Of a DNA stretch of 64,000 nucleotides, positions 6,462-32,770 are shown piece by piece. The stretch is from Schizochytrium sp. TIO01 (Eukaryota > Protista > Bigyra: Labyrinthulomycetes). Both the position numbers and the translations under genes were made by a program. Under the pieces are notes generated by a model, which was given only the letters and a program-made list of their open reading frames with translations, ran no database searches and was not told the origin of the DNA. The stretch spans positions 6,190,029-6,254,028 of the forward strand of contig SMSO01000014.1 of assembly GCA_004764695.1 (NCBI GenBank), read 5' to 3'. The number at the start of each line of letters is the position of its first letter. Positions within the stretch are counted from its first letter, which is position 1.

Positions 6462-6765
6462 CCCTACTGGCGTGCAAAGCCTCGTCGTGCCGACCTTCAG
6501 GTAACCGACAGCGATGATTTATGTTTTCGTGGCGCTTGTGATTCTAGTTTTGATTCCAATCTTCAAGTTATCTTCTTCATCTGTGAGTCATTTTCCTTTT
6601 CCTTACCATACCTGCATTACTAACTTCTAAGCGCGTTTATTATGACAGAACCAACCCAGAACCGTACCAGAACGATACGAGATGAAGGCAGAAACAAAAA
6701 GCTCGCGGAAGACACCTCCTCCAGGCCTTGTTTTTGGAGGATTAGTAATTATGGAATCGGTTTGT

Positions 6766-7656
6766 TTAAGACAGGATCAGCGAAAGACTATGTGATTGTG
6801 AAAAGATCCACAATGTAAGAAGACTTGTCGTTCCCTTTTTCATTCCGAGACACCTAGTACAAATGGGCGTTTGTTCGTCCTTTCTTAACTTTCGTGGAAC
6901 TACGCAATCACCAATCAATAAGATTCTTGTGAATGTGCATTTTAAATACAAACAAGTCGATCAACATAAGCAAAAACATACCAGACAAAGTAGAGGTAGT
7001 GGAGGTTGAAGATGGTTTTATAAAGCTGGAGAACCTGGCTGTCTGAACGGTAACATTCTGGTTGAGTTGAGATGGACCATCATCTATCACCTTATGCTTG
7101 TCGGAATAAACACAAGAAAGGAAACTGCAAATAACCTTTTTGTTCTCTCGAGAAGCTAGATTGTAAAAACTTTATGAACTACCAAACTACATGAAAACCT
7201 GGAAGAATTGATCCAAGAATCCAAGGGAACCACTTTGATGTATGATTTATATTTGGGTAGATCTTGGCGCAATGTGGTGGTTAGCATATAAATTAACCAA
7301 GTCCATATCACTAACGCAATTTTAAAAATTATGCAACGATAAATGATTACAGCACTTGCTCTTTCTGGTCCTACTTCAATATTCCATTTTGCTGTTCCTT
7401 TGAGGTTTTTTTGAACTTGGAAATCATTTAATGACATGAAAGTAACGTACTCATTGTTACTGACAAGGTTTATTATGCCGGACTCGTTGAATAGTTTGCA
7501 TATGCATGATAATTTACTGTGTGATAGTCCCTTGCAATGAGAATTGACCTGACATGGTAGCCAGCAATCATTGAAAAGACAAACGTTAGGCAATGAGATT
7601 ATCAGGTTGCCATCGGTGAGTGCCGTGTGATTAGAGGGTCCTTTCAATGAGCTCAT
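6766..7656 (-). pseudogene. Cys-rich unrecognised ORF broken into several frames
   Basis: ORF 7156-7656 is followed by shifted-frame fragments 6908-7090 and 6766-6951; TATTTATTTAA lies 9 nt upstream of the ATG. Confidence 0.4.
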
Positions 7657-7841
7657 TAATTCGGATTAAATAAATAAATTTAAAGAATTTACCACTGATT
7701 GGTTGATTAATTTTTTGCCTATTTGTCAACGCTGCTGTTATCGATAAGCCAAATAAATGAATGAATGTATAGTAATATACTTTATATGTAAATATAAATA
7801 TTAGATTTGAAGATGAGTCTGGCTTTGTTATTACTATACTC

Positions 7842-8160
7842 ATGCAAAAGTCATTACCTAACCATGGATTTATTCCTGTGGTCACAGGCCCCACATCTGT
7901 ATCTCTGATAGAAGTGAAAAATGTTGACTACTTCGTCGATGTGTTGCGTATTTTCTTCAAGGAGGGTACTGCCTTTGAGGAAGCAATGAATCTTGCATTC
8001 TTGCATCGTAGACACGACTATATCGACCAACACTTTGAAATATCAACTCGCGCGACGCGTAGGCATATTGTCGATAAACATACTATGAATAGGAAGGAAT
8101 CAGAGTTTCCTTCTGCATGCTCTCCAAGTCTTGATCATCTGGGTTCGCACGGTAGTTTGA
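7842..8160 (+). pseudogene. Unrecognised ORF, apparently 3'-truncated where it meets the opposite-strand gene
   Basis: ATG after an AT-rich divergent promoter region; the frame runs head-on into the coding sequence of 8100-9230(-). Confidence 0.3.
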
Positions 8161-9230
8161 ATGTGGTTCCTAAAATCTGCAATAATGGTGCGCAGGTATC
8201 CTACATTAGAGCTGGATGAATATCCAAAGTTTGATTCATCAAATGGCCCCCATGATTGTGCAGGATTATAGCCAAGCTCCTTAAGAGTATTTTTAAGAGT
8301 TGCTTCAAGTGTATATGTTTGTTTGTTTGTCATTGTCTGTGGAGATGTAATTGGAGCCTGTGTTGGCACAGGGAGTGTTGTGGGTGATTCAGATGGCATG
8401 TAAGTAGGATTAGATGTGGGCACAACTGGCGCCTTAGTTGGATAAGTCGTTGGGTTTGTCGACTCATCGCTTGTCGCTTGCTCGATTGCTGTTGTGACAT
8501 CAAAAGAACTATAGTCCCCATCGTCACTTTCATAGTCTTCTTCATCTTCTTCATTGTCACTTTCATAGTCTTCTTCATCATCTTCTTCATCGTCTTCTTC
8601 GTCATCTTCTTCGTCATCTTCTTCATCGTCCTCTTCATCATCATCAGTCGTTGAGTTAGAAAGAACATCAGATGTTTGTAAATTACGCCTTGATCCGCCA
8701 AGACCACGAGTCAATGTGTTATCGTCACCATGGGTGGGGTTTTCTTCATTCAAAATGCTTAGTCGGCGTCCTAGACCACCGAGGCGCCTGCGACTGCTAT
8801 CACCTGAGCTATATTCTCCACCAGATGATGCATATGCACTTGAGTATGCAGAGCCACTGCTGCTGCTGCTGCTGCTGCTACTACTACTACTACTACCACT
8901 TGAACCGGATGAATATGAATCATCTCCAGTACTTGTATATTCATTAGACTCACTGTACCCCGATAGATACTCACCGTCATAGTACGCTGAATAGGCATCT
9001 GAGGATGCAATTGAAGATGCGGCACTAACACCTACAGACGCACCAATCGCAATGCAAATAATGAGAAAAAGAATAACGCAAGCCACGATCCCGTGTTCGT
9101 GAAGTAATGTTTTGAAAGAACCCCAGCATCCTTTTTCTCTGGATTCTCCTTCATTGGAGGCGACAATCCGCATTCCACGTCGCCCCCCACGATTTGAAAA
9201 CCCACCATGATGTTGCTGGGACCTCTTCAT
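8100..9230 (-). pseudogene. Type II membrane mucin-like protein; truncated paralog of the M11-like peptidase at 9404-11374
   Basis: TM IVACVILFLIICIAIGASVGV, poly-Ser, (DDEE)n, PTxxPT repeats, then LGYNP...NFG...GYLRTIIADFR aligning with LGYSP...DFG...GYLRTLVPDFK of the neighbour; ends shortly after, with no protease domain. Confidence 0.65.
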
Positions 9231-9403
9231 AAGTACTTACTTAAATAAATACTTTTTATCGCTTATATCGCGCTTATGATTATCTCTCTTTTGAAGTCTA
9301 TGTATGGTTTTCAGCGTCCAATGCCAAAAAAATGTATGCGGTGTTACTTTTTAAAACTTGGAAATGTGAATATTAAGTTATGTACTGGTAGTTAGATAAT
9401 TTG

Positions 9404-11374
9404 TTATTTGAATGAAATGAGAATATCCTGCCACAGGAAACGACCTATCTTTAAAGTACACTGATAGCTCGTATTTTTCTCAGAACTTGTTAATTTCTTT
9501 TTGCTTGAATAACTAACTGTCACGGATATAGTTTGATGTTCCATGTTAGTCGTGACTGGTTTTTTGTAAACCAAAACAGAACCAGCAAACTTCAATCCAG
9601 GTCCAATCATTGATGGTAGGTCTTCAACTCCATTAGTGTAAGTACCCCAATCACACACCACAGTTGCATAATTATCGATTGAAAATGGGTCTATGGTATA
9701 CTCATCATAGTTTCTTTGTAATTTCGCAGTAACTGTGGTCTGTGCATACCGAGTTGAACTGCCAGATTTAATCTTTGTTTGATAAATATCATACTGTGGA
9801 ACCCACGTCGTCTGGTCTGCCTTATCATAAGTGACTCGAACATCTACATAGTCTCGATTAAAATCCACCGTTTCGAAACGCAAACCATTATGATGAGTGT
9901 AATTCTTACCGAATGTGGTAATTTGTGTGGCGTGGTTCCTAGGTTTTGATTTTGTATTGCCAGAGGCAACATGAAACACACACCCCATTCCATCTCCATG
10001 TGCATTGTCACCCTGGTCTTCCTCATATGTTGAGCTAAAAACCTTTGGATATCTGTAAAATGAGAACCATGATTCAGAGTCATACACAAGGTCTCGATAA
10101 AAGAGAGCCATGGGATATGATGAATTAACAATTGTGTTCTCCCAAACAGTACGCAGGCGATAAGTATTCCCGGGGACTAAATTGATATAATCGTCTTCAT
10201 CAAACCAGCCAAATGCGTGCTTTTGTGCAGGTGTATAGCCTTCAGGGCCATAGTGATCGATGCCACGAGAAAGCTCCATACCACCAGAGCACGAGAAGTG
10301 ATCTCCGTATTCGGCGAGTTGACCCCAGCGCCCATCATCGAGTCTTTGGAAGAGATGGTTGTGATTCCATTGAAGTAAATGGCCATATTCATGAAAATAA
10401 CTGAGTAAACTTCCATTGGCTAATTGAATAACAGCTCCATTGCCTGCACCAATGTAACAAATTGCCGCAAAATAATGCTGGGTGCTCTTGTTAAATACAA
10501 AATTCGTATTATCCTTCTTTGCAAGTGTGAGTAGTTTCTTACGAACTAAGACACATCTGCCTTTAAATGAGCTCTTTTTTGCCAATGTGTATCTCTTGAA
10601 TCCCTAATCACCGTTATTTTTTATTGAATATGTGTAGTTTGACCAAAGTGCCATTTTATTCACGAAATAAGCCCAATAGTCATCATCACTGATAGTATTA
10701 TCAGTAGATTCTGGGTAGCCAATCATAGAGTAAGTAATGTCTTTAAAGTCAGGAACTAAAGTTCGGAGGTATCCATAGTCAGAAAGCTTAAATCTACCAA
10801 AGTCAGAGACGTTTCCTTGTTCTAAATATGGACTATACCCAAGGGCTGATTCTGTATTGACGACACGAAATTCAACATCACTGTGAGTTTTACTATTTGT
10901 TAGGTCCACGACTGTAACATCAGATGGGTTAATTGTTGGATATGCAGTTGGTTTGCTCGTCGGTGTGGTCGGGGCTGATGTTGATGTTGATGTTGATGAT
11001 GTTGGCTTTGCCGTAGGTTTAGAGGTTGGCGCTGATGTTGCGACTTGAGTTGTATAATCATCTCCGCTGCTGCTGCTACTACTGCTGCTACTACTGCTGC
11101 TGCTGTAAGTTTCACTTGTATAGTCATCCGAGGAGTAAGCAGAGGAGTCTGATACTGTTGATGTACTAGAAGACTTCGATGACGAGGAGCTACTTGAAGA
11201 AGACTCCGTTGTTGTGGTTGATGAGTTAGAAACCACAACTCCTGTTACAGTCCCAATTAATATCACTAAAAATGCAACAAATGCAAGTGTTCTTTTTGTT
11301 TTGTAGCTCATTCTGTGATCAGATTCGTGTTTAGAATGAGCTTTTTTAACATCGTGGTACTTTTGTTTCGTCAT
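9404..11374 (-). pseudogene. Membrane-anchored gametolysin/M11-like metzincin with one in-frame TAG
   Basis: ORFs 10604-11380 and 9404-10585 are in frame (...AAC GGT GAT TAG GGA TTC AAG...); HEYGHLLQWNH zinc motif, EYGD.FSC and YTPAQKHAFGW resemble M11; N-terminal TM, Ser-rich stalk and PT repeats. Confidence 0.7.
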
Positions 11375-11543
11375 GTACAAAAATTAACAATAATATTAAA
11401 ACAATAATTAAGCTGAATCCTTGTTATTTTTTTTTAAGAAGCAATTTTATGTACACATAGATGTGAAATTCATCTTTCATGATATAAACTAACTACAACT
11501 TATGTATCGAGTTCAAATAATATAAATTACGAATTATCATCAC

Positions 11544-13565
11544 TCAGGACGTGCCGAAAATTGCTACAGGAATGTATGAGTTGTTTGCCAATGTTAGTCC
11601 ACATGACATCGGGACACATACTAGGTCTTCAGTCGATGCAATGTCAGGGTCAACGATATCGCCACAACATGGAAAATTAGTTTCACCGAAGAAAACCTGA
11701 CTCAATGTTGTGTCTGATAGGTCTTCACTCACATCAGTTCTAACGATGGTAAGTGTAAGGCCATCCTCCGACAGACTTACATAAGTACTATCAATTATCT
11801 CCGACGAATCACTAAAACCATAGTAACTTGAAGAAGATAGAGGACTCCATCTAAAGGGATGTGAAGTTGCATTTTCTGTTGCAGGTGTTGGCACTAAGAA
11901 GGCAACTGCTCGATCAAACACTATTTCAATTTCATCCGAACTTATCTTAGTCATACTACTAATTTGCGCTGGCTCCTCCGACATGTACAACTGTCGAAAG
12001 GCTCTGTAACCGACAGGTCCTCTCAGGCGCGGAACGCCTACTTTCTCTTTACCAAATGCAGTCGAGTCATCGGCATTTTCACACCAACCCTTGATAAACC
12101 AGGGTTGACTTGCAATCGACGATTCGGAACATGATGCGTTACTAAGAGTAATTGTACCTTCAGTTCTATAATAAGGATCTGGTAAATCGTACACACTCAC
12201 ATATGTTGTCAAGGAATCGCCTAGAGATTCAACTGTATCGTGGAAAGCAAGTCTAGCCTTTGTTGCGAGGCCTGCTGAATTTATATCCTGGACATCAACA
12301 CCGATAATTGCAATTTTAGACAGCGGATGTGCTTCGCGCCAATAATTTGTGAAAAAGTAATCATAATATTTATCTTGAAAATCTGAAACATCGTCCTCCG
12401 TCATAAAACTGTTACCATATTGAACTAAGAGAGCTTCCACAGTGCTGGACTCGAGTTGATGAAACCCCTGTTCATAGCCGGTCTCGTCACTCAAAGAGTC
12501 AATCTCGTATGGGTACCAATTACCGATACTTATTTGAGGTAATGAAATCACTACAAGTCCTATGAAATTAGTATCAGGGTATTCCTCTAAGTAATTTAGT
12601 GCAAAACTGTAACACGATGAAGAAGCATCTTCAAGACTCTCTTCAGAATTTGACCATCCATACGGAAGTGGATCCGATGCAATCGTGGCAATACCATACC
12701 TCATGTGAAAAATTCGAGAGTCGTAGCGAGATCGAAAGGAATCTGCTGCAAGGTCATGTTCTATAGGCAGTGCACTCGACTCTTCGCCAGCGCAAATAAA
12801 AACAACCCCAAATTGAAGATTTGATACAACAAATGTGTTATCAGCATAAAGATCCCACCTCGAATAGGGATATAATGTAGTTATATTCGTACCCACCTGT
12901 ACTGTGATAACTTGACCATCAGTATCGATTGAACATTCCCTCGTGATTTCTTCATCGCTATCGACATTGATCAATGTGCAAGTCTGGATATCAGAAGATA
13001 TACTCAGACCAAGGGGTTCGTAGTAAAGACCGAATGTGCCATCAGTGTCTAATTGAATAACAAGATTACCGGATGCAAGATAGGGGTCTTTGCCGCTTGT
13101 ATAACTAGAGCCCGTAATCGCCTCTATATCACTGGCTGTGCGCGCAGTTGGCGCAGTTGTGGGTCCTGATGTAGTTGGAGCTCCAGCGACGGTAGGATAT
13201 GGTGTCGGGTTTAGAGTCGGTGCATTTGTAGATTGGGGATCGTTGCTATCTGCCGTTGGACTAGAAGTAACCTCCTCAATTATATTTGCATAGTCATCGG
13301 AATTACTTGATGTGGAACTTGATGTTGTCGATGAAGAACTAGACAATGAATCGCATACAATTTTTTCACTTGTGAATGCCACCTCCACTGATGTACTATG
13401 GTTGAGTGGAATACATACTCCTGTCTCCTGAACAGAAATGTACATGGCGACTAATACAAGACTAATCATCAAGAGCGGATTGATTAGGATAAACCATAAT
13501 CGAAGAGCACTTGCGACAAAATGACTAGACGTTGAGTTACTCTTTTTACGCATGTTTACTGACAT
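11544..13565 (-). CDS. Membrane-anchored sialate O-acetylesterase (SASA/SGNH)-like protein, catalytically degenerate
   Basis: VSNLQFGVVFICAGEESSALP resembles DVxxGxVWLCSGQSNM; ASSSCYSFALNY...FIGLV resembles FSAVCYxFA...PIGLI; GVPRLRGPVGYR resembles IHPxNKxxVGxR; N-terminal TM and PT stalk. Confidence 0.6.
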   Translation of the reverse strand: MSVNMRKKSNSTSSHFVASALRLWFILINPLLMISLVLVAMYISVQETGVCIPLNHSTSVEVAFTSEKIVCDSLSSSSSTTSSSTSSNSDDYANIIEEVTSSPTADSNDPQSTNAPTLNPTPYPTVAGAPTTSGPTTAPTARTASDIEAITGSSYTSGKDPYLASGNLVIQLDTDGTFGLYYEPLGLSISSDIQTCTLINVDSDEEITRECSIDTDGQVITVQVGTNITTLYPYSRWDLYADNTFVVSNLQFGVVFICAGEESSALPIEHDLAADSFRSRYDSRIFHMRYGIATIASDPLPYGWSNSEESLEDASSSCYSFALNYLEEYPDTNFIGLVVISLPQISIGNWYPYEIDSLSDETGYEQGFHQLESSTVEALLVQYGNSFMTEDDVSDFQDKYYDYFFTNYWREAHPLSKIAIIGVDVQDINSAGLATKARLAFHDTVESLGDSLTTYVSVYDLPDPYYRTEGTITLSNASCSESSIASQPWFIKGWCENADDSTAFGKEKVGVPRLRGPVGYRAFRQLYMSEEPAQISSMTKISSDEIEIVFDRAVAFLVPTPATENATSHPFRWSPLSSSSYYGFSDSSEIIDSTYVSLSEDGLTLTIVRTDVSEDLSDTTLSQVFFGETNFPCCGDIVDPDIASTEDLVCVPMSCGLTLANNSYIPVAIFGTS

Positions 13566-13631
13566 GCTTCTATCTATCTAATAATTTATGTTCAAATATC
13601 ATATGTATGTTAGTTATATAGTTTTACTTGT

Positions 13632-14753
13632 TCACTCCATCTGTGGGATTTGTGAATATTCAACCCTGGGAATAATAACGTCTACAAAATGCCAATGAAA
13701 CATAGACAAACTAAGAAGAAGTGTTGTTAAAATGGCATTCATGAGGAATGTACTACTGAGCATACTTCTTTCCGCCATTTTAATGACGCGGGTGATATTC
13801 TCATGCTTGATTGTATTATAATACGGAGACTCGACTGCGCTTGTTGATAAGAACGTACTTGATGCGTCATTTACTGGTTCTGCACTACCATAAAGTACTT
13901 TAGCTATGTAAATTGCAGCGTGATCATCCTCTTCTTGAAAACGAAGTGCATATGCGTCGTGGATATCACAGTATGCCACGCTACCTAACACAGCACGATA
14001 AACAAACGCTGCACATACAAACACAGTGTAAGAATTACATAGTTGAGCACATTCGTCCAAGGATATTCTACTAAAACTCTGGACTAGATTTTCACTTGAA
14101 AGTGTCATGTTTATGATGGGTTCCTGGAAGCCTGAAAAATATTCATCGTTCGTATTATATTCAACGGTTGGTGGATACGTTGGAAACCTACCGTAGCAGA
14201 GATGGGGTTCCATCAGCCAGATGGAACGTACAAGGTTATTCGTATTTGTAGTATCCAATGAAGCACGGGGTAAACGTTCCGCATAGGTGCTGTTTTCATC
14301 AAATGTTATCGTTTCGCCTATGTAACAACTCATGAGATTACACGTGTACAACACATCAGTATAAACTGTTTCTATGCGTATGGACCTACATTTGAAATCC
14401 TCGAGTTCCAAGCATTGTTCAACACATGCTTCATATGCTTCCGCACCAGTTACACGGGCTGATACTTGAGTGGTGTAGCCACTATCGCATGTGTAATATG
14501 TAGCAGAGGGAATGACACTCGACTTAAGTGCATCTGTATCAACAAGTCCATACTGGCATGTTTCAGTCCAGTTAGATTCATCTAGTGTGATGTTTACATC
14601 AAATATACAGTCTAAAACATTACCATATGCAGAATTTACTTCAGACACCTGATCTGATGACGAGCAGTTCCACGAACTGGATTTCACTGGTGTGCCTGAT
14701 GTGTTCGAAATAAGAATAATTAGAATAATGAAGTTGTGAATGTGCTTAAACAT
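13632..14753 (-). CDS. Secreted/type I membrane protein with two PAN/apple-like domains
   Basis: Signal peptide; ACVEQCLELEDFKCRSI...CNL and ECAQLCNSYTVFVCAAFVY...CDI cysteine patterns; C-terminal TM. Confidence 0.7.
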   Translation of the reverse strand: MFKHIHNFIILIILISNTSGTPVKSSSWNCSSSDQVSEVNSAYGNVLDCIFDVNITLDESNWTETCQYGLVDTDALKSSVIPSATYYTCDSGYTTQVSARVTGAEAYEACVEQCLELEDFKCRSIRIETVYTDVLYTCNLMSCYIGETITFDENSTYAERLPRASLDTTNTNNLVRSIWLMEPHLCYGRFPTYPPTVEYNTNDEYFSGFQEPIINMTLSSENLVQSFSRISLDECAQLCNSYTVFVCAAFVYRAVLGSVAYCDIHDAYALRFQEEDDHAAIYIAKVLYGSAEPVNDASSTFLSTSAVESPYYNTIKHENITRVIKMAERSMLSSTFLMNAILTTLLLSLSMFHWHFVDVIIPRVEYSQIPQME

Positions 14754-15309
14754 TACTAGGGATTATAATTCTTCTCTTCTCACCCTTTATGAAAAGATCT
14801 GCCATATGATATGATAGAACGCTGTAAAGTAGCCCGCTTAATATACTTACGACACACACAAAAAGTTTCACATTGTTAAAAATGACTTGACCTTGCACAG
14901 TGTACGTGTAATCTAATGAATGCATTGTTTTAACCAAAGTGGCAGTGTCGTCTACATCTGTATCATATTGATATTCAAGCGTGAAGACATCATAGGATAC
15001 ATTTTCAATCAGTGTGACAGCTTTGAAGGTGGGGAATACAATACAGCTTCTAAGAACTGATGAATAACCTACCGCTTCACAATCTTGTGCCATGACACAT
15101 AGGTTTAAACAAGCTGATTCTTTAGTAACCCCTTCAATATAAGTTGCATCACTAGTGTTATCCGGCAGAGTGCTAGGATATGTGCTTACATTATAGAATG
15201 CTTCAGAATTTTTAATAAAGAGTAAAAATGCAAGTAGGACTTTATTTTGGAAGCCCATCATATTACTTACTGTGTGCGGTACAGAGATAGTTTTTTTATA
15301 CATATACAT
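14746..15309 (-). CDS. Small type I membrane protein with one PAN/apple-like domain
   Basis: Signal-like segment, ACLNLCVMAQDCEAVGYSSVLRSCIVF, C-terminal TM; stop overlaps the next gene's ATG by 8 nt. Confidence 0.65.
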   Translation of the reverse strand: MYMYKKTISVPHTVSNMMGFQNKVLLAFLLFIKNSEAFYNVSTYPSTLPDNTSDATYIEGVTKESACLNLCVMAQDCEAVGYSSVLRSCIVFPTFKAVTLIENVSYDVFTLEYQYDTDVDDTATLVKTMHSLDYTYTVQGQVIFNNVKLFVCVVSILSGLLYSVLSYHMADLFIKGEKRRIIIPSNV

Positions 15310-15568
15310 GACTAAGGATAAATACTTATATCTCTAGTGGTATCTTTCTTTTAATTAGCAATGAGAGCGTTTTTAGAACTTATCACGAAAGTTCTTACTT
15401 CAACACCAATTATGATTGCTTTTGAGGTTTTAGCCCTGCATATAATCAACGAAAAGCTAGGTGCAGTTAGTGCTACATTCCTCGTATTACCGTACACTTG
15501 TTTATTTAACTTACTCGCCCTTGGTTGTTTTAAGTGGTAAACCCGCGACGAGGGAGTGCAGTGCAAGG

Positions 15569-16291: not shown

Positions 16292-16392
16292 CAATTGGTA
16301 AAATATATCTTTTTAATTTTGATTTTAATTTTAATTTTAAGAATGTAAATAATTATTTTAAAAAAAATAGAAACAATGGTTTCAACTACACT

Positions 16393-16921
16393 TACATTAA
16401 CTAAAGAAACTCAAACTGGTGGCCCTCAAGGTTTTTTACAGACCTGTCTATTAATTAGTACCTGCATTGATCACGAATTTGATCATATCTACCTACACAA
16501 ACGAAACATATAGTCACTGAAACGATTTACACTCCCTCGCTCGCTTATCGTTCTATTCCTACCTAGTTATTTTCGTCTTACCAAACTCATAATAAAGCAA
16601 TCCCAGCTATTTTCGCCTATGAGAGTGCTACCAGGCCTCCTAGTAAACCGTCCTAACTATTTTCACATTAACCCGGTACTACATTAACTAAAGAAACTCA
16701 AACTGGTGGCCCTCAAGGTTTTTTACAGACCTGTCTATTAATTAGTACCTGCGTTGATCACGAATTTGATCATATCTACCTACACAAACGAAAGATCTTA
16801 CTTATTTTCGTCTTACCAAACTCATAATAAAGCCATCCCAACTATTTTCGCCTATGAGAGTGCTACCAGGCCTCCTAGTAAACCGTCCTAACTATTTTCG
16901 CCTATGATACATTAACCCGGT
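16393..16921. repeat. Imperfect tandem duplication containing six copies of an ~18-bp motif, approximately CCYARYTATTTTCGYCTW
   Basis: 114-bp block 16393-16506 equals 16680-16793 (1 mismatch); ~98-bp block 16567-16664 matches 16802-16899; motif copies at 16562, 16602, 16652, 16797, 16837, 16887. Confidence 0.92.
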
Positions 16922-17018
16922 CATATATTTTAAAGTATTCATGTATCTATGAATTAGTTATATTATACCATTATCCCGAAGGTTTACCTTCACGGCAGAC
17001 CCGAAACGCGCTGGCAAA

Positions 17019-19085
17019 ATGCGTAGATTTACAACTACTTTGAGACAAGCCGCGAGGGGGATGATCAGTTCCCGCAACGATCCTAGTGCCCAATTTAGAC
17101 CTGTGCAACCTTTTCAAGAGCTGGCTTTGAGAACCATCGATGAGAATAAAACACAGATCGCGGAGGCATCCGAAGAGCTAAAAAGGTCAGGTACACGACT
17201 GGATGAGCTTTATGCTGATCGAAGAGCATTTATGAACAAAATTAGTGAATTAGAAAGCTCGTTTAGCAGCCAAGTGTCAGAAGAAGATGCTGTTTTTATT
17301 AGAGCGCATGTATCAACCCTTGGTGATGATGTGTCAGACGAAGAGGTTGATCGGCACGTTGCACAACTAGAACGTAACGAAAAGCGGCAATTCAAGTCGG
17401 CGATGCGAATCTTTAAAGATATCTATGAGGAAAAAAGTTTCCTAAAGCATATTCTCGATGATATATCTGACGAAAAAAGCTATCGGGATAAACTTTTTGA
17501 TGAAAGGAGCAAACTTCTAAAGATTAATAATGGGCTGCTGGACTCTATGAACGAAAGAATATCCCCCGCTCCTGTTATCGATGCCTTAAGCACGGAATGT
17601 CCAGTCTTGGATCAAAGCGATCCAGGCCAGTCCAATCCAACAGATCTTTCTAACATGAAGAACTACTATGCAACACCTGTGAAAGTACGTAATTTGCCTA
17701 TAAGTTCATTCGTGAGCTATTGCGCGGCAAAGCATTACATTGAGCGCCTCGAAAGGACCCATACAACCCACAACGTGGAGAAAATGATGAAAATTCTAAA
17801 AACTCGTAGATTAGGTGCCGAGGCGTCGATTACCGCACCATTCAGTGACATGTTCAGTATAGTTGAACAAACCTTAAAAGAGGAAGAGAGTCTTGATCTC
17901 CCCAAGGATATCGTTCTTCTTATCGGTAACACGAGACATATTGTAGGCAATCCAGACTTTGGTATACTTTGTCGTAATCACGATCCAGATGCTGAAGAGG
18001 TACCAGTGATTGTTGGCGAATTCAAAGGTCTTGGTTATCAATTCGACGATCTCGCTGAGCACTATTGTGACGCAGGATGTCAAGATGAAGCTTGTGAGTC
18101 GCAGCGGCATACAAGAGACTCAATTATTCGCCAGTTGTACAATTACATGGTACGAAACGGTGTCTTTGTTGGCATCTACACCAACTATAAGCAGACGTTT
18201 GGGTTATACAGAGACTGTTCAGGAAATTTGCTGACCTCTGAGCCAATTTCAGAAAACACCGAGGGGAATATAGAGCAGGGTCAGGTCAGCGTACTACAGT
18301 TTCTTGCACTCAGTATTATGATTGCCTACGATGGTGCGGTACCCGAATTCGAAGGTAGCGGTATAGATGGTTTGCTTATACCCTGTCCAGACGGTCATCA
18401 AGGTGGTCCTTGTCAAGGTCACACAAAGCTACCAGAGGCTTGCAATGCGAAAAATGACCGCAAAATAAATAAACATGAAACTTATAATTCTCCACCGGAC
18501 GATAGCTTCATCGGTTTACACCTGACTTCAGATGGAGAGCCATTATACTTCATTGATCTACACGATCGGGAGCATCTAGTACCTGGGTCCACAGGTCAAG
18601 TGGTGCGTGCTCGGATGCCGCTGAAGTCAGGCGAAGTGGACACCGTGTTGAAGATGTTGGACACGTTTAAGGAGCAAGAGAAGATACCTGAACTTAAACA
18701 TGAAGCTTCAATCTACAGGGAACTTGCCTCGCTACAGGGCGAATGCATCCCGGAGTTTGTCGATATTGGTTACTTTAGGGAGGGTTTTCTATACGCTCTT
18801 GGCACTGTCTATTCAGGTGAGAATGTTTCGAGTGAGGCAACTTTCAGTAACGAGTTCGTGGACAAGGCCGTTGAGTCTCTAGTCAAAATCCACGACCATG
18901 GTGTTTTACACGGCGATTTGAGCAAGAACAATATTCTTCGTCACAAAGAAACAGGAGAACCTATGTTCATCGACTTTGCCTTATCCGAGCGTGCTGATAC
19001 TATGAGTTCAGATGACTTCGAGAAGTCTAGGGAAGCGGAGTGCAAGCAACTTCGAAACATGCTGGCTAAATCTAGTAACTTATAA
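17019..19085 (+). CDS. Coiled-coil + PD-(D/E)xK restriction-endonuclease-fold + protein kinase (Crinkler-type REase-kinase architecture)
   Basis: GNPDF...IVGEFKG...IIRQLYNYM....GIYTNYKQT nuclease signature; kinase GSTGQV, VLK, HEASIY, HGVLHGDLSKNNIL, IDFALS; ORF intact. Confidence 0.75.
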   Translation: MRRFTTTLRQAARGMISSRNDPSAQFRPVQPFQELALRTIDENKTQIAEASEELKRSGTRLDELYADRRAFMNKISELESSFSSQVSEEDAVFIRAHVSTLGDDVSDEEVDRHVAQLERNEKRQFKSAMRIFKDIYEEKSFLKHILDDISDEKSYRDKLFDERSKLLKINNGLLDSMNERISPAPVIDALSTECPVLDQSDPGQSNPTDLSNMKNYYATPVKVRNLPISSFVSYCAAKHYIERLERTHTTHNVEKMMKILKTRRLGAEASITAPFSDMFSIVEQTLKEEESLDLPKDIVLLIGNTRHIVGNPDFGILCRNHDPDAEEVPVIVGEFKGLGYQFDDLAEHYCDAGCQDEACESQRHTRDSIIRQLYNYMVRNGVFVGIYTNYKQTFGLYRDCSGNLLTSEPISENTEGNIEQGQVSVLQFLALSIMIAYDGAVPEFEGSGIDGLLIPCPDGHQGGPCQGHTKLPEACNAKNDRKINKHETYNSPPDDSFIGLHLTSDGEPLYFIDLHDREHLVPGSTGQVVRARMPLKSGEVDTVLKMLDTFKEQEKIPELKHEASIYRELASLQGECIPEFVDIGYFREGFLYALGTVYSGENVSSEATFSNEFVDKAVESLVKIHDHGVLHGDLSKNNILRHKETGEPMFIDFALSERADTMSSDDFEKSREAECKQLRNMLAKSSNL

Positions 19086-19132
19086 CATAGGTAGGTATGA
19101 AGAATCTAGATACATAAACAAAAGAACTCAAT

Positions 19133-19864
19133 TTAGTTCATGTTTACTTCTTTTAATTCGAAGTCGACGACGAGCCTTGGAAGAATTACTTCATAACGTA
19201 GATTCACATAAACGGGTTTGTGCGGCCCATCAAAACCATTCATAAAGAATACCGGGTTCTCATAAGCCTTCGTTTGGATTGATGCGAGGTGGCTGGCTAA
19301 ATTTTGAGCTTTGACTAAAACGCTATATTGAACAACCTGATTGGTTCTACCAGGCTTCGATAGTTGCTTAATAAAGGCAAACTTGATGTGTCTCGAAAAC
19401 TTTAGACTAAGTGCTTTGGGGTCAATAATGTTATCTTGTAAACCAAAGAAGTTACTCGAGTTCGCACGATGATTCCCAATAGCACTATAAACCGTGAGTT
19501 GAATCAAATCACCAGAAGCATCATTCTTGTGACACTCATAACGAGTAGATTGTACGTAATTTGTAATTACACGAATACGCGGAATAATTAAGCGATGGCT
19601 CTGTACGGGCGACATATGTGTTCTAAAATAGTACACATTTTCAAGTTCTAAACCCGAGGTAATGTTTTTCCATGCTTTGGATCTGGGGATGACATCAACC
19701 ATCACATGCTTGTTCGTCCCCCAGTTCATTTGAATATGATGCGCGTGATATATCTTATTCAAGATTTGAAGCCATTCATCTGGTTCATCCGAAAGCTCAT
19801 TCTTAATCGCACCCAAAGCGGATGCTAACTTATCCGATGAATTCACTACGCAACTAAAGTACAT
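19133..19864 (-). CDS. Unrecognised protein, 243 aa
   Basis: Intact ATG-initiated AT-rich ORF convergent with the kinase gene; no family recognised. Confidence 0.55.
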   Translation of the reverse strand: MYFSCVVNSSDKLASALGAIKNELSDEPDEWLQILNKIYHAHHIQMNWGTNKHVMVDVIPRSKAWKNITSGLELENVYYFRTHMSPVQSHRLIIPRIRVITNYVQSTRYECHKNDASGDLIQLTVYSAIGNHRANSSNFFGLQDNIIDPKALSLKFSRHIKFAFIKQLSKPGRTNQVVQYSVLVKAQNLASHLASIQTKAYENPVFFMNGFDGPHKPVYVNLRYEVILPRLVVDFELKEVNMN

Positions 19865-20121
19865 AAACCCGTAAAGATATTACTGATCCATTTAGTAACC
19901 AGATATGAGTGCTACTCAAGGTGGTCATGAGCTCTTTTGAACTAGATGATCCTACAAAAATAGTGGAAGAGCAATCAATCCCTTTTAAGTAAGATATTGA
20001 CTGCAAAGGATCAGTGTCTGCAACACAAAGACATTTTTTCTAGATTTTATAAATTAATGTTTGTGCAGAACATATGATGAGTTCATCTAAAGTATGTTAT
20101 CTACAAGCATGCGTTCATTGA

Positions 20122-20916
20122 TTAGTTTGCTTCAAGTTGCGGCACGGTTTCGGGTTTCTTGCTATCCTGGTTTGGGCTGCGAAACATTGTAACAATATTG
20201 GGAGTTTGCGCAACACCAAGGCCTGCGGTGATTGCACTGCCTAGCACGACGAGTGCATTTCGCACGCTGGCAATGATTTTGGCCGCCAGGTCGAATGGAT
20301 TTGATTTGGCGCCAGAAAAGAAGGCAGCAATTTGAGCCATACTGTTGGCTCCGCAAATTTGGCCTTGCAACTCAGGAATCTGAAAATATTGTGCTTCCAT
20401 GAAAATATCACGCAAAGCCTTGGGGTCCTTGGTGGGCAGTTGTACATGGGACTTGAAGATGTCTGATTTTTCCCCAATCACCTTGCGCAGTGCATACTGC
20501 TCGTGGCTGAGACCTTCTGCTTGGTTCCGCAAATGGTTGAGGATAAGCCCAAAGTAGGTTGGATCGCGGTCTACAAAGACCTTTTCGCCAACTACCTCAG
20601 AATTCCTCTCAGCACGGACAACATAGGCTGCTAGTACCGGATTAAGTGCAATCGTAGATCGCAAAGTGCGAAAGTCCTTGCCTCCAACATCTAGCACGAT
20701 AACACCATCTCCAGCACCATGTCTCTCTACATATGCAAGAGGGTTCTCAACCGTCTTGATATTTGCTGGAATTTCGATTGCCCCGGACTCAGCCGAGGAA
20801 AACATTCGCATTTGTTGTTTGAAGCTTTGTATGCGATTTACAGAGTTGCGCAAAAGTGCTACCACGCCCAGGGTCGGGGTTTTGATCCTCATACTGGCAT
20901 TCATGAATTGGAGCAT
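20122..20916 (-). CDS. KCTD-type BTB/POZ (T1) domain protein, host-like, with possible mitochondrial presequence and C-terminal hydrophobic segment
   Basis: IVLDVGGKDFRTLRSTI, VFVDRDPTYFGLILNHLR, EAQYFQIPEL; first ATG at 20916. Confidence 0.85.
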   Translation of the reverse strand: MLQFMNASMRIKTPTLGVVALLRNSVNRIQSFKQQMRMFSSAESGAIEIPANIKTVENPLAYVERHGAGDGVIVLDVGGKDFRTLRSTIALNPVLAAYVVRAERNSEVVGEKVFVDRDPTYFGLILNHLRNQAEGLSHEQYALRKVIGEKSDIFKSHVQLPTKDPKALRDIFMEAQYFQIPELQGQICGANSMAQIAAFFSGAKSNPFDLAAKIIASVRNALVVLGSAITAGLGVAQTPNIVTMFRSPNQDSKKPETVPQLEAN

Positions 20917-21511
20917 TTTCCCACTATCCGTTTCCTTCTTTCTCACACGTTGCTTGAAATGTTCCGCAAATAGAAATCTTGCAACCTCTATAAGCACAAA
21001 AACTTCTTTATCTTTCACTCGTATTGCTACCCTGTAACCCTCTCTCCTTTGCACCAGTTATAGCCAAGCTCAAGTCAACGAAGTTCGCTGGCCTAATCTT
21101 GCGAATTCTACCCCGCACTAGGATGCTCTCCCAGGCAAGGTCTCAACGATGTTTAGGTCTTGCGATGGTAGCAAGCTTCGAAATCCGCCGCTTTTTGCCA
21201 ACGCACAGCCCAGCCTAGCGGCCTCTTTGTTGCTTGAACTGTTCCCGCACAAATGAATTTGCAGTTTGATCTATCTTCTTTTTGAGACTTCGAAGAATTC
21301 CTGTTTTCCTGCTTGATCACAATTAAAGCAGCCATCCTTATGATTTTCCTTATCCACTCCTAATGGTCACTTTGTTTAAGCTATTTATTTACTATTACCC
21401 AGCCAATAGACGAATGAGGTGGCGACTTTAGGATTTTGATCATCTGTTCTCCCAAACTCTTGATTTGCTTCAAATCAAATTCCAGTAATTCGTAAGCAGC
21501 CGTCTCCTTCC

Positions 21512-22295
21512 TCAAAACCTCAGCAAAATATTTTGGGGGCTGGAATTGAATCTTAGTTTTGAGCGTATTGTCGAGTTCTCTGCTTGCTTTTGGAAAAGAC
21601 TTGGGATTGTTGATGCATAGTAAAAGTACTCTAGACGATTGTGGTTCCGTACCCGAGCCTCATTGAAAGCTTCTGCAGCCCATGCGGGACTTTTCAACCA
21701 CAATTGGCTGAGACGTTGGCTAACCTCTGTCACAATCCCGTGGCGTGGGGTCAAGGTCAGGCCAAAGCGTATCCGTACGTCTGCAGGGCACAAACGAAGA
21801 ACAACTTCACTTGTGTTACGAAATTCTTCATTGCACCTTTTACATTCATACTTTTGAGCTACGAGAAACCAATTTCCAGTCGCACTAGCAATCTCTCGGT
21901 AATTTGGTGCCCAGAAGCCATCGTCACCAGAGACGCTGACAAGAGGTTCACCCAAATGCGCTCTTTAGTTGCAGTATGGACATGGCATGCGACTCTTCAT
22001 CGACGCATACATTTTTGCTGGATGCCATAACCCAACGCTGCGCTGGTGAAAGTACTCTGGTGCAATTTGTTGATCTCTTTTTACTTTCGGCAGTTTGGGT
22101 TTCTGGAGCCAAGTGATTGTCCCATCAGGAACAATGTCATGCAGGGACTGGCATGTTTTGATGTCCACATTATCAAGTGTATCTTTGCAGCTGTCTATAA
22201 ATTTTTGTTGGATTAAGGTGATCGTAGTCTCGCGTTTCTCCTCATCTACATTAGCGCTCTCATTTTTAAGCCTTCCAGATCCGTTCTGATATCCT
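21512..22295 (-). pseudogene. DUF6729-like Zn-ribbon (transposon-associated) fragment with in-frame TAA
   Basis: LWHP...MPCPYCN*...GFW...REI...NWFLVAQKYECKRC.EEF...VL..CP..VR.RF...LT; ORFs 21965-22168 and 21512-21955 are in frame across one TAA. Confidence 0.5.
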
Positions 22296-22965
22296 CATGA
22301 CTCAAGGATTCCTGGTAATTGTCCCCGGGAGTGGCTGTCGCCTGGCGAAGCTTGCAACGTGATGAAAATTGCATCATTTTCGTGTTTGATGTTTACCTCG
22401 TTGTTGAGTCTCGCTACCTCAGAGTATCATATAATATGCCTATCTGAACATTTCCAAGTCTCTTTGCACATGTATTCGAGCCCAAGGAATACTAGCTTAT
22501 CACCATACAAGTCCGGTATTAAATTGCGTCAGTGAAACTTACCCATAGTAATAGTTGAGGTGGATTAACCATTTTACCGGAAACATGTAATATCCTTGTA
22601 AGGAGACCCAGTAGTGATACACTCAACTATTCTCAGTGGCTTTAGAGGAAGATCACCACTGAGTGTTCTTGCTAAAACCAGTAACAAAGTTCATAAAGAG
22701 TTTAAAATTGAAAGCTAAATGTCATGTCAAGTCCCACAGTTAAAGCCATATATCCTATAAAATGCATATCAAAAAACTCGCCAACACAATATTTTTGTGA
22801 GGAAAAGTAGAATTTCCCCCCATATTTTCGCCTGTTCTCTCCTATGTTCTCTCCCCCCCCGCGAGTTCTTTTTTTGAGCTCATATAATATATATATACAC
22901 ATGCGTGTAGTGCCAAAATCCCAATTATTATTTTTTAATAATAGGGTAATAACCTAATTTTGTTG

Positions 22966-23619
22966 ATGATGAACCTAGCGTACTTGCGCGCGCGCTTTGT
23001 GGCGAGTGCGTTAGAGATGGAGTCCTCGCGCCCGACCTCGGCGAAGGCCGATGCGCTGGGGCGTGCGTTGGACTTTGCGCGGTCGCACCAGGGCGGTCTA
23101 ACGATTGCGTTCATCCAAACGATCAACGAAAAAGTTATACCTTCTTGACACAATAAGAAAGGATTGAGGACTCAAGTAGCCTTCACTCGAAGACTTACTT
23201 CTCAAGGCGAACTTTCGAAGGATATTATTGTTTATTGTTTGCCACACGAAATCCACGCCAAGATTGAAAGTTTGATTCAAGGACTAGCCATGGGGTCCAT
23301 CGAGAGTATTGCTAGGTTTTATGCCACTTTCCTTGACATTCATCCCTTCGCCAATGGTAATGGCAGGACTATGCGTGTGCTCTTCGCCTGGATCCTCGAA
23401 CGCAGCGGCCTGGCGCCGCCATGCACTGACTTGGTCCATCCTTACGTCCTCAAGTTTTCACCCGACGACCTCGCGTGCCACGCCAATTTGCAACTATTTC
23501 CCAAGCGTCTTTACTTGATGACACTTCAACAAGAACGCAAGAGGTCAAGTCACCACATCCCTACCTTTGTAGAGTATGTCAAAGCTTCTTTGGAAACAAA
23601 TTCATTAGAATTTAGTTAA
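22966..23619 (+). pseudogene. Fic-domain (AMPylase-like) gene with one in-frame TGA
   Basis: FLDIHPFANGNGRTMR Fic motif; ORFs 22960-23148 and 23164-23619 are in frame across TGA 23146-23148. Confidence 0.8.
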
Positions 23620-23635
23620 TGTCGATGTAGTCTTA

Positions 23636-24900
23636 TTAAACGTTGTGTCTTTTTATATGACTATATATCGCGGAGGGACGGGTTGCATGAAAACCACTCA
23701 TACCACACGCATAGCGAGTTTTCCCAACATTGAAAATGTCAATACCCTCGTATTGCTCTTTAAAAGAGATTACCCTGAGAAGAGTACCTTGATATGGACA
23801 CATTGTGTGTTGGAAAGCGCTGTAGTCCGCCGCGGGGGTGCCGCAGCGATCAATCTTTGCGTTTTCCACCCGCCACTTCTCCAGTTCCAGTTCACCTACC
23901 GGATCATTAGGAAAAACATTAGAGGCTTGGTTGGGTAATTTGCTTAGATCCCAATGTTTTGAAACATGATTTCTCATCCAGGACCTTGCATTGCATTGGT
24001 CTCCACACATTCCACACACATAACGACCAAAGCTCATAAAAACGTTAATACCCATAATTTTCCTGCAGAAATCATCCACCGCCAGGAGAAATCCACGGAA
24101 AGGATGTTTTGTTGGATGAACGAACGTGTAGTCCACATCGGGAGCGTGCTTCTTCTTTTTCTTCAACTGCTCAACAGTATCCTGCCGCCAATTGTACAAT
24201 TCAAGCTAGCGGGTTCGGTCGAAATGAAATGAAATGTCTTCGAGATCGGTACTTGTCTGTCTATTCTCTAGGGGACATGTGTATTCGCATGATCTGTACA
24301 ATGAGTTTGGTCCATGCCATGTCACCCACACATACCACAGACGTACCTGCCATCAATGTTCTTGAAAAGGTTAATGTCACCAATTTGAGCAAAGAAGGAA
24401 ACACTTTTATCGGGAAGCGGCTTTATCGGCTTACTTGAAGTGTAAACACATGACCTATAGTCCGTGTGCGGGGCGTTGCGAAAGCGCGCACGAAGGTCCT
24501 CCCGCCACCTCTGAAGAGCCTGTTCATCATTCCTGTCATAAGCAGATGTACTTCGATCAGCCGGATTGTATTTTTTTCATGAATAAGGACATGGGCCCTT
24601 AGGTCTACCATTCTAGATGATTGAAAGCCACACAAGCCCCACACGTGCAAATTAGGATTCTCCAGCTTGAATATACTTATACCGTAGTCCCCCTCATCAC
24701 ACTCATATTTATTTACCTTCAATAAAGGACCCGTGTACACATCCCTCAGACTAGACCGATAAAACTTGCTATAGTCAATCTGTGGACTCTTCTTCAGGAT
24801 ATTGTTACCAATTCTCTAAGTCACCGGGGACCTGGTCCTGCTGCTACCCGGGAACGTAGTAACGATGACACTAGACATTTTCTGCTCGCCATCGTTTCAT
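23636..24900 (-). pseudogene. Degraded multi-repeat C2H2-like zinc-finger gene (at least 4 repeats)
   Basis: Repeats GISIF..HVWGLCG..H...H, DINLF..RYVCGMCG*..H...H, GINVF..RYVCGMCG..H...H, GIDIF..RYACGMSG..H...H, separated by stops and frameshifts. Confidence 0.65.
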
Positions 24901-25323
24901 GACGGCCCCTATCAGTTCATATGTGTATATATACTAAAATAAAAAAGGACCTTTGTTTCTTTAATTAGCTAGAGCAAGCTGTTCCGCACTCGTCAGCCGT
25001 GACGCTGTCGCCGCAACAGTTGTGTCTCGGCTGCCTACAATGATTGGAACCTACTTGTGAAGTTGTTCGCGTTCTCAATATTCTTATTGTTCTTTATGAT
25101 CCTATTGTTCCATATGTTCTAATATTTCAATGACTCTGAAATCGTCATCGTCGTCGTCGCAGTCGTCTTCTTCTGCTGGTTGGGCAGTTCCGGTTCATCT
25201 TGCTTTGCTGGCGGGCTGCTGGCGCAAATAGCAAGACCTGAACGACCTTTCAGTTTTGTTTGTCTTCCCCGTCTGCAAGGCGTGAGGAGCTTTGGTGCGG
25301 AGTGGATCGGTAGATTGAGCGCA

Positions 25324-32724: not shown

Positions 32725-32770
32725 AACCTAACTTAACCTAACTTAACCTAACCTAACCTAACCTAACCTA
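32725..32770 (-). repeat. Interstitial (TTAGG)n-type pentamer tract with TTAAG variants
   Basis: aacctaacttaacctaacttaacctaacctaacctaacctaaccta. Confidence 0.9.

What the first reader, a model, noticed from the sequence alone, without database searches (positions are those of the whole stretch)
6760..24950. ~18 kb foreign, decaying island resembling an endogenised large DNA virus or giant element, rich in surface-protein and effector genes
Seen: between host TatD and a TPR gene, composition becomes AT-richer, genes are intronless and tightly packed (8-nt overlap at 14746-14753; 47-nt and 16-nt gaps between convergent stops at 19085/19133 and 23619/23636), several ORFs are unrecognisable, and at least five genes are broken while flanking host genes are intact. 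Known: thraustochytrids have been reported to carry integrated and episomal mirusvirus-like genomes, and large DNA viruses often encode Fic proteins, kinases, C2H2 repeats and captured host surface proteins. Inference: this is a relic of such an element. I see no capsid, portal, terminase, polB or integrase, so the class (mirusvirus, Nucleocytoviricota or giant transposon) is unresolved. The host-like BTB gene may divide it into two inserts.
Basis: partly seen in the sequence, partly recalled or inferred. Interest (0 to 1): 0.85.

Follow-up and report, generated by a model that had tools for sequence, protein, structure and literature searches.

The report
Scattered mirusvirus relics in protist chromosome
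This 18-kb stretch of a marine protist chromosome is a patchwork rather than one insert: a 12.6-kb block that some strains lack on one allele, a host-like gene, a broken likely transposon and two broken genes; several of its proteins resemble those of known mirusviruses, so it is likely a decaying, repeatedly copied viral leftover that still carries one intact, probably transcribed nuclease-kinase gene.

Summary
The island is real and not chimeric: contigs of independent runs bridge both borders. It has four parts.
(A) 7250-19859 has GC 40.2% and is 85% coding. A joint skips it in 2 of 4 DNA runs, with a TA shared at both ends. Diverged copies of its inner part occur elsewhere in these runs.
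(B) A host-like BTB gene, covered by probable RNA contigs.
(C) A truncated piece of a multicopy, likely DNA transposon.
(D) Fic and zinc-finger pseudogenes.
By eye against published ORF tables (no computed alignment), three proteins have specific counterparts in the Aurantiochytrium mirusviruses: the Fic (AurliV-1 ORF523, 62 of 108 residues), the nuclease-kinase (AurliV-2 ORF95, 41 of 87) and the double-PAN protein (AurliV-2 ORF853/854/265). No capsid, portal, terminase, polymerase or integrase was found, so it is filed as mirusvirus-derived (about 0.75), not as a mirusvirus. Five broken genes are confirmed. The kinase gene is intact, probably transcribed, and has a presequence-like N-terminus. 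Decayed mirusvirus genes in protist genomes are in print; my searches found no paper on this locus or its presence/absence variation. The scan earlier noted an AurliV-2-like insert elsewhere in this genome.

The parts
5109..6422 (-). Host TatD DNase (left flank, intact)
   Evidence: PF01026 E=9e-44; probable-RNA contigs end at 6421-6542
7248..7249 (.). TA at the left junction of block A (possible target-site duplication or microhomology)
   Evidence: Joint 7247->19860, 2 letters fit either side; sequence
7250..19859 (.). Block A: 12.6-kb AT-rich, 85% coding, likely mirusvirus-derived segment; skipped by a joint in two strains
   Evidence: GTTAGCAT lies inverted at 31-38 nt inside each end
7156..7656 (-). 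166-aa PAN-like ORF with C-terminal hydrophobic segment and no evident signal peptide; runs about 30 codons past the left junction
   Evidence: PF00024 E=0.02, below cut-off
7800..9230 (-). Zincin-like gene 1, broken: membrane anchor, Ser/acidic/Pro-Thr stalk, then frameshifted and decayed peptidase part
   Evidence: Paralogous to 10604-11374 (35%, E=3e-5); three-frame reading of the tail
9404..11374 (-). Zincin-like gene 2 (membrane anchor, Ser/Thr/Pro stalk, HEYGH motif), broken by one TAG at 10604-10606
   Evidence: no Pfam or PDB hit; architecture as AurliV-1 ORF149 (by eye)
11544..13565 (-). 673-aa membrane-anchored Ser/Thr-rich protein, no relative found; diverged copies elsewhere
   Evidence: no hits; 86-87% copy on a 7.6-kb contig; 96% copy in probable RNA runs
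13632..14753 (-). 373-aa secreted or membrane double-PAN-type protein, same cysteine framework as AurliV-2 ORF853/854/265
   Evidence: By eye; weak PAN-protein hits
14746..15309 (-). 187-aa PAN-domain membrane protein
   Evidence: PF00024 E=3e-4, 21.1 bits against cut-off 21.4
15569..16291 (+). 240-aa ORF of unknown family with an RVRF motif
   Evidence: contigs in probable RNA runs with 5-18 differences
16393..16929 (.). Imperfect ~290-bp direct duplication upstream of the kinase
   Evidence: 117 nt at 98% and 101 nt at 97%
17019..19085 (+). Intact 688-aa protein: presequence-like N-terminus, likely coiled coil, PD-(D/E)xK-type nuclease motif, kinase; counterpart of AurliV-2 ORF95
   Evidence: Pkinase E=1e-5, RIO1 above cut-off; motif positions; by eye; near-identical contigs in probable RNA runs
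19133..19864 (-). 243-aa ORF of unknown family; its ATG straddles the right junction, so it may be 5'-truncated
   Evidence: fold failed
19860..19861 (.). TA at the right junction of block A
20122..20916 (-). Host-like BTB/POZ gene, intact, at flank-level depth
   Evidence: PF02214 E=1.5e-10; GC3 0.49, TpA o/e 0.53; probable-RNA contigs 20026-21219 and similar
21424..22882 (-). Truncated, decayed end of a multicopy repeat, likely a DNA transposon (DUF6729 fragments)
   Evidence: PF20499 E=3e-4 and 5e-3, below cut-off; matches the end of 2.2-3.7-kb contigs at 6-17 times flank depth; second fragment at 37739-38032
22966..23619 (+). Fic gene broken by one TGA at 23146-23148; counterpart of AurliV-1 ORF523
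   Evidence: PF02661 E=2e-10; identical 109-aa product held by JGI/IMG and MMETSP
23636..24900 (-). Pseudogene of ~85-aa C2H2-like repeats
   Evidence: Internal repeats E=4e-7; breaks; covered by one contig with the Fic gene in probable RNA runs
25324..27432 (+). Host TPR gene (right flank, intact)
   Evidence: PF13424 E=1e-11

Best explanation
The region is a composite, and its foreign parts are likely leftovers of an AurliV-related mirusvirus that lack the virion and replication genes and would be spread by host repair or duplication. Shown: a 12.6-kb block (7250-19859) between TatD and BTB is skipped by a joint in two of four strains, has TA at both ends, and has 85-98% identical relatives elsewhere in the same runs; BTB looks like a host gene; a multicopy repeat fragment and a Fic plus zinc-finger pair lie between the divergent BTB and TPR genes. 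Inferred: (1) a mirusvirus genome integrated long ago and broke up; (2) its accessory-gene blocks were copied to several loci, one copy landing at a TA in the BTB-TatD spacer by break repair, so the short allele is the pre-insertion state; (3) the Fic/zinc-finger pair is a second, independent fragment, with a transposon piece beside it; (4) genes useful only to a virion (surface PAN proteins, anchored peptidases) decay, while the nuclease-kinase is kept and transcribed and may be imported into mitochondria.
For: Junctions bridged in independent runs; joint 7247->19860 in X6 (depth 178 against flank about 340, block tips about 212) and X14 (16 against about 20), with contigs starting exactly at 19860 in both. 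Fic: 62 of 108 identities in three ungapped blocks with AurliV-1 ORF523 (17/39, 24/36, 21/33; my count), including the part C-terminal of the Fic motif. Six metagenome Fic hits matched only within residues 30-107 at 32-51%, and ORF523's own best BLAST hit was E=4e-6. Kinase: 41 of 87 identities with AurliV-2 ORF95 (12/34, 7/9, 22/44; my count); ORF95's listed best hits are Rhizophagus and Cymbomonas, not Hondaea. 373-aa protein: same ordered cysteine blocks as AurliV-2 ORF853/854/265. GC 40.2% against 41.6% for AurliV-2. Joining the flanks leaves about 1.1 kb between BTB and TatD, near the 490-923 seen for host gaps. A pseudogenised viral polymerase at a third A. limacinum locus is reported.
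Against: No mirusvirus hallmark gene was found. The AurliV comparisons are by eye, on about 50 of some 435 table rows, with cells cut at 400 characters, and no tree gives the direction of transfer. Exact-motif searches of the tables found no match for the 673-aa, 240-aa, 243-aa, zincin or zinc-finger proteins. Neighbours of ORF95, ORF853/854 and ORF265 are not the island's neighbours. Both junctions cut ORFs, and the right one falls within an ATG, which also fits a later deletion. The Markov test of the DNA just outside the junctions was inconclusive. The short allele rests on a contig with 30 letters on its shorter side, with 'between: not known'. Summed contig depth is not a copy number.
Confidence: 0.55

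Rival explanations
1. One older mirusvirus insert spans roughly 6.8-24.9 kb (with BTB captured or engulfed), and the short allele is a later 12.6-kb deletion at a TA microhomology.
For: Both junctions lie inside ORFs and the right one inside a start codon. 6540-7247 scores between host and island. AurliV-1 carries a BTB-domain ORF. The long allele is in all 4 DNA runs laid.
Against: BTB has host-like codon and dinucleotide use and flank-level depth. The in-register 8-bp inverted match at both ends would be a coincidence (chance 0.0007-0.004, found after the fact). The repeat at 21424-22882 has a relative outside the island.
Confidence: 0.22
2. These are native, fast-evolving host surface and effector genes expanded by segmental duplication; the mirusviruses captured copies of them.
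For: Several copies per run. Kinase and paralogues are covered in probable RNA runs. Nuclease-kinase proteins are common in eukaryotic Crinkler-type families. Many AurliV genes have Hondaea or host-chromosome homologues.
Against: Low GC3 and 85% coding density. No Hondaea or other named thraustochytrid relative came up in any of four protein searches, although those searches did not return the AurliV proteins either and are word-limited or clustered. Five genes are broken, and the block is skipped in some strains.
Confidence: 0.12
3. The block comes from another large mobile element: a nucleocytovirus such as the SmDNAV-like 'Ariadnavirales', or a cargo-carrying transposon with its own enzyme elsewhere.
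For: SmDNAV-like contigs are associated with an Aurantiochytrium assembly, and some non-core genes are shared with mirusviruses. TA ends, dispersed copies and a subterminal inverted 8-mer are transposon-like.
Against: No nucleocytovirus hallmark, transposase or recombinase in block A. No terminal inverted repeat beyond 8 bp. The specific counterparts found are in AurliV-1/-2. SmDNAV proteins were not compared here.
Confidence: 0.1
4. The island is an assembly chimera or contamination from a free virus.
For: None beyond the foreign composition.
Against: Single contigs cross the left border in X1 and X11 and the right border in X1, X6 and X14, at flank-level depth. 14 runs of about 57-68 million letters hold 0.72-0.84 of the words of a half-host, half-island query; one of them may be the source of the window.
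Confidence: 0.01

Closest known systems
AurliV-2 (LE-Chr15), integrated mirusvirus of Aurantiochytrium limacinum (PMC12606086; 10.1101/2023.06.15.545109)
   Same: GC about 41%, dense ORFs, double-PAN surface proteins (ORF853/854/265), nuclease-kinase ORF95 with an Arg/Ser-rich N-terminus, anchored enzymes on Pro/Thr stalks
   Different: AurliV-2 is about 269 kb, described as uneroded, with a virion module, and flanked by rDNA. This locus is 12.6 + 2 kb, has no hallmark gene, no rRNA gene in the window, is decayed and multicopy, and gene order is not shared in the rows seen.
AurliV-1 (CE1), episomal mirusvirus
   Same: Fic protein ORF523 (Aurli1_13050) with the same HPFxNGNGRT variant and C-terminal extension; anchored zincin ORF149 of the same layout
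   Different: The Fic gene here has a stop and is chromosomal; the zincin link is architecture plus a short motif only; AurliV-1's three PTHR37171 kinases are more distant than AurliV-2 ORF95.
Decayed mirusvirus endogenous elements in eukaryote assemblies (PMC10827195); pseudogenised viral DNA polymerase on A. limacinum tig00000011 (10.1101/2023.06.15.545109)
   Same: Broken viral genes among host genes
   Different: Those were found through hallmark markers; this locus has only accessory genes and shows presence/absence between alleles plus dispersed copies.
Crinkler-type REase plus kinase proteins (reviewed in PMC5289972)
   Same: PD-(D/E)xK-type motif followed by a kinase
   Different: No Crinkler header was recognised; the N-terminus is presequence-like.
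HSV-1 UL12.5 (PMC11789124), as a functional analogy only
   Same: A viral nuclease isoform that localises to mitochondria and depletes mtDNA
   Different: No homology tested or claimed; mitochondrial import of the island protein is only a composition-based prediction.

Membership tests
Mirusviricota (as a genome or provirus) | Virion module: major capsid protein, portal, terminase, triplexes | tested here: inconclusive
   No match in Pfam, NCBIfam or PHROGs, but these are not mirusvirus-specific libraries. The 240-, 243- and 673-aa ORFs stay unassigned, and both folds failed (pLDDT about 31). Not filed as a member.
Mirusviricota (as a genome or provirus) | Near-complete genome of about 270-300 kb with replication genes | tested here: not met
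   Foreign blocks are 12.6 and about 2 kb, bounded by host-like genes
Mirusvirus-derived endogenous element | Genes with specific counterparts in known mirusvirus genomes | tested here: met
   Fic/ORF523, kinase/ORF95, PAN/ORF853-854-265, by eye; no E-values or trees
Mirusvirus-derived endogenous element | Chromosomal integration with foreign composition and decay | tested here: met
   Bridging contigs; GC 0.402 and 85% coding; broken genes
Mirusvirus-derived endogenous element | Phylogenetic nesting within mirusvirus sequences | not testable with these tools
   No search returned AurliV proteins as usable records
AurliV-2-type integrant | Flanked by rDNA or 5S genes at a chromosome end | tested here: not met
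   No Rfam match at gathering score and no tRNA in the 64-kb window
TIR DNA transposon with TA target (Tc1/mariner-like; features recalled) | TA target-site duplication | tested here: inconclusive
   TA at both ends and once in the short allele, but equally a 2-bp microhomology
TIR DNA transposon with TA target (Tc1/mariner-like; features recalled) | Terminal inverted repeats and a transposase | tested here: not met
   Only an 8-bp subterminal inverted match; no transposase hit in block A
Nucleocytoviricota element | Jelly-roll capsid, packaging ATPase, VLTF3, PolB (recalled) | tested here: inconclusive
   No such hit; six scans of viral contigs found no relative; SmDNAV proteins not compared
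REase plus kinase (Crinkler C-terminal type) | PD-(D/E)xK motif followed by a protein kinase | tested here: met
   PDF at 312, GEFK at 333, HGDL at 631, IDFA at 651; kinase profile hits; the nuclease assignment is by recalled motif only
Fic/Doc AMPylases | HxFx(D/E)GNGRxxR motif (recalled) in a full-length protein | tested here: not met
   Motif is HPFANGNGRTMR and the gene has an in-frame stop; a 109-aa downstream product could still be made

The most novel reading that the evidence does not exclude
Block A is a non-autonomous mobile unit built from mirusvirus accessory genes: it has defined ends (TA duplication plus a subterminal inverted 8-mer), has spread to several loci, still varies between alleles, and is kept by an expressed, mitochondria-targeted nuclease-kinase acting as a selfish toxin or as a domesticated counterpart of herpesviral mtDNA-depleting nucleases.
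Probability: 0.12. Interest if true: 0.82.

Novelty: new member of a known kind. Interest (0 to 1): 0.48.

Why it matters
Mirusvirus footprints are normally found through capsid-module markers. This locus suggests thraustochytrid chromosomes also hold hallmark-free, multicopy accessory-gene blocks that such screens would miss, probably from a mirusvirus distinct from AurliV-1 and -2. An allele without the block appears to exist in cultured strains, so its effect and insertion mechanism could be tested directly. The presequence-like N-terminus on three related nuclease-kinases gives a concrete hypothesis for how mirusviruses may act on host mitochondria.

Tried and rejected
No whole genome is held, so other copies and synteny could not be mapped.
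Protein searches: 673-aa protein, 0 hits among 7984 candidates; kinase, 1 hit among 7993 (P0001, 44% by BLASTP); Fic, only its own 109-aa product among 15 candidates; 373-aa protein, 3 hits in 1.84 billion (one 56-aa near copy, two generic PAN proteins). These searches are word-limited or clustered, so blanks do not show absence.
Six viral-contig scans gave 0 relatives. The metagenome scan gave 6 generic Fic cores.
Both single-sequence folds failed (pLDDT 30.7 and 31.2), so no fold search was run. The Atlas gave no result. PDB sequence search of the zincin piece gave 0.
Exact-motif searches of the AurliV tables: 17 different motifs in 18 terms gave one unrelated protein hit and English-word hits. 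This argues against the 85-98% copies lying in AurliV-1/-2 as published, within the 400-character cut.
No run is on record as RNA. The near-absence of cover over 7.4-12.7 kb in probable RNA runs (apart from two low-complexity bins) is not taken as evidence of silence. X15 is probably DNA and was not used for expression.
Markov segmentation could not place the borders. Helitron ends were looked for by eye at the junctions and not seen.
Paper searches: 'DUF6729' gave 0; 'mirusvirus' plus 'mitochondrial targeting' gave 0; searches listed no paper on this locus or on strain variation of such relics.
Scan look-ups by sequence, relatives and a long word list were empty.
The bioRxiv supplements of Collier et al. 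(Text S2, Table S7) and most rows of the Chung et al. tables were not seen and may list this locus or further homologues.


Full report
Setting. The flanks are ordinary eukaryotic genes (TatD, YccV-like and TPR by Pfam; others named from the translations). No whole genome is held.

Observation. The overlap, the two short gaps and five broken genes are as described. The compositional shift is limited to 7250-19859 (GC 0.402, 85% coding); the right third is 0.443. GC3 is 0.30-0.44 in block A, 0.49 in BTB and 0.45-0.59 in five flanking genes. Five block-A surface or peptidase genes and the 166-aa ORF have AT-rich sequence directly before the ATG, unlike five host genes shown (by eye).

Is it really in the chromosome? 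A half-host, half-island query was held by 20 of 24 listed runs from 14 studies. I laid 4 of the 14 best holders. Single contigs cross 6760 in X1 (5800-8552) and X11 (5800-7411), and cross 24950 in X1 (23418-25790), X6 and X14 (24643-25790). The tables are cut, so other bridges may exist. A chimera is excluded.

Internal structure. In 2 of 4 runs (X6, X14) a contig joins 7247 to 19860, skipping 12,612 bases, with 2 letters (TA) fitting either side; in both runs another contig starts exactly at 19860. In X6 the joint has depth 178, the tips of the block about 212 and the flanks about 340, as expected for one long and one short allele. X14 fits less neatly (16, 14-18, about 20). X1 and X11 show no such joint among those listed (8 joints not shown), nor do the 4 runs. 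Over 12.5-19.1 kb summed depth is 1.5-7 times the flanks, and distinct contigs align at 86-98%, for example a 7.6-kb contig at flank depth that matches only 12183-12779 at about 87%. Two variants are also visible at 8477 and 10404-10557. So related segments lie at other loci. Summed depth is not a copy number. Bases 21424-22853 match one end of 2.2-3.7-kb contigs at 6-17 times flank depth that continue into unrelated sequence at 21424; they carry weak DUF6729 fragments and have a 69% relative at 37739-38032. I read this as a host-wide DNA transposon, separate from the viral blocks; a paper search for the domain gave nothing.

Ends of block A. There is no terminal inverted repeat, but the 8-mer GTTAGCAT lies at 31-38 bases inside each end, inverted; random pairs give such a run at 0.0007 (one register) to 0.004 (five registers), found after the fact. 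Both ends cut ORFs: the 166-aa ORF runs about 30 codons past the left end, and the ATG of the 243-aa ORF straddles the right end. Insertion and later deletion both fit. I favour insertion, because the short allele leaves a normal spacer of about 1.1 kb between BTB and TatD and BTB looks like a host gene. The Markov test was inconclusive.

Link to mirusviruses. Database searches returned almost nothing. The link comes from the ORF tables of Chung et al. (PMC12606086), of which I saw about 50 of some 435 rows, with cells cut at 400 characters, compared by eye. The Fic gene from 22966, read with its stop, is colinear with AurliV-1 ORF523: 17/39, 24/36 and 21/33 identities in three ungapped blocks, including the segment after the Fic motif that generic Fic hits do not cover. 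The kinase matches AurliV-2 ORF95 in layout and in three blocks (12/34, 7/9, 22/44), including a Cys/His-rich insert after the nuclease motif; AurliV-1 has three more distant kinases of the same PANTHER family. The 373-aa protein shares the ordered cysteine blocks of AurliV-2 ORF853, 854 and 265. The two zincin-like genes share the anchor-stalk-peptidase layout of AurliV-1 ORF149; that is architecture, not proven homology. Against: no shared gene order in the rows seen, no exact-motif match for five other island proteins, and no hallmark gene. The same blanks suggest the 85-98% copies are not in AurliV-1/-2 as published, so the donor was probably a third, related virus.

Expression. No run is on record as RNA. 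In 3 probable RNA runs, near-identical contigs cover parts of the kinase (X18 17007-17326 with 1 difference and 18621-19146 with 2; X20 18127-18650 with 4), BTB, and about 22970-24960 across the Fic and zinc-finger pseudogenes (12 differences, 14 gap letters in X17 and X18). They stop at 6421-6542, at the TatD start, where DNA runs go on, a weak hint that they are RNA. The X18 contig passes 19084, where another copy diverges, which points to this locus. The 109-aa Fic product is also held by MMETSP. Contigs show neither strand nor level.

The kinase. It keeps nuclease-type residues (PDF 312, GEFK 333) and kinase motifs (HGDL 631, IDFA 651), and its first 30 residues hold 6 Arg and 1 acidic residue, with the highest hydrophobic moment (0.63) of 15 proteins tested. 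P0001 from Met93 has 7 Arg and no acidic residue, and ORF95 starts with a long acid-free Ser/Arg-rich stretch. Mitochondrial import is therefore a prediction from composition only. REase-kinase proteins are known as Crinkler C-termini (PMC5289972), and a herpesviral nuclease isoform depletes mtDNA (PMC11789124); both are analogies.

What is known. Intact episomal and integrated mirusviruses in A. limacinum, a pseudogenised viral polymerase at a third locus, and decayed mirusvirus markers in many protists are in print. My searches listed no paper on this locus, on hallmark-free multicopy relics in thraustochytrids, or on allele variation of them.

Papers seen. PMC12606086: abstract, section 6, part 1 of 2 of section 9, five table parts and term searches in the supplements. 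10.1101/2023.06.15.545109: parts 1-3 of 4, supplements not seen. PMC10827195, 10.64898/2026.08.29.747986, PMC5289972, PMC11789124 and PMC12768974: passages. Motif and family definitions marked 'recalled' come from my own knowledge.

Verdict. A real, composite locus. Mirusvirus ancestry of the foreign blocks is about 0.75 overall: 0.55 for two separate inserts with the short allele ancestral, and 0.22 for one insert with a later deletion. It is a new member of a known kind. Interest 0.48.

Noticed in passing
window 32717-32770: 10.8 imperfect copies of CCTAA, the reverse of the TTAGG telomere unit reported for A. limacinum, at an internal position
   Followed up: no
window 37739-38032: Second decayed fragment (69%) of the repeat family found at 21424-22882, in a gene-poor gap at 37.5-41.7 kb
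   Followed up: partly
window 17019-17110: Presequence-like N-terminus on the nuclease-kinase, shared in character with P0001 and AurliV-2 ORF95
   Followed up: partly
window 15569-15610: RAKRVRF at the start of the 240-aa ORF resembles a PP1-docking RVxF motif (recalled) or a nuclear signal
   Followed up: no
window 22970-24963: One contig in probable RNA runs spans two convergent pseudogenes (Fic and zinc finger); overlapping transcripts could give double-stranded RNA
   Followed up: no
window 16393-16929: Recent-looking imperfect duplication (97-98% in its cores) upstream of the kinase, variable among strains
   Followed up: no
window 28356-29955: The CobW-like ORF ends at 28636 and a downstream acidic ORF continues in another frame (28356-28664), suggesting an intron or a frameshift in a host gene
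   Followed up: no
window 11159-12747: In X1 the best contig here is about 98% identical while the flank contig is 99.5%, which may reflect exchange between dispersed copies
   Followed up: no
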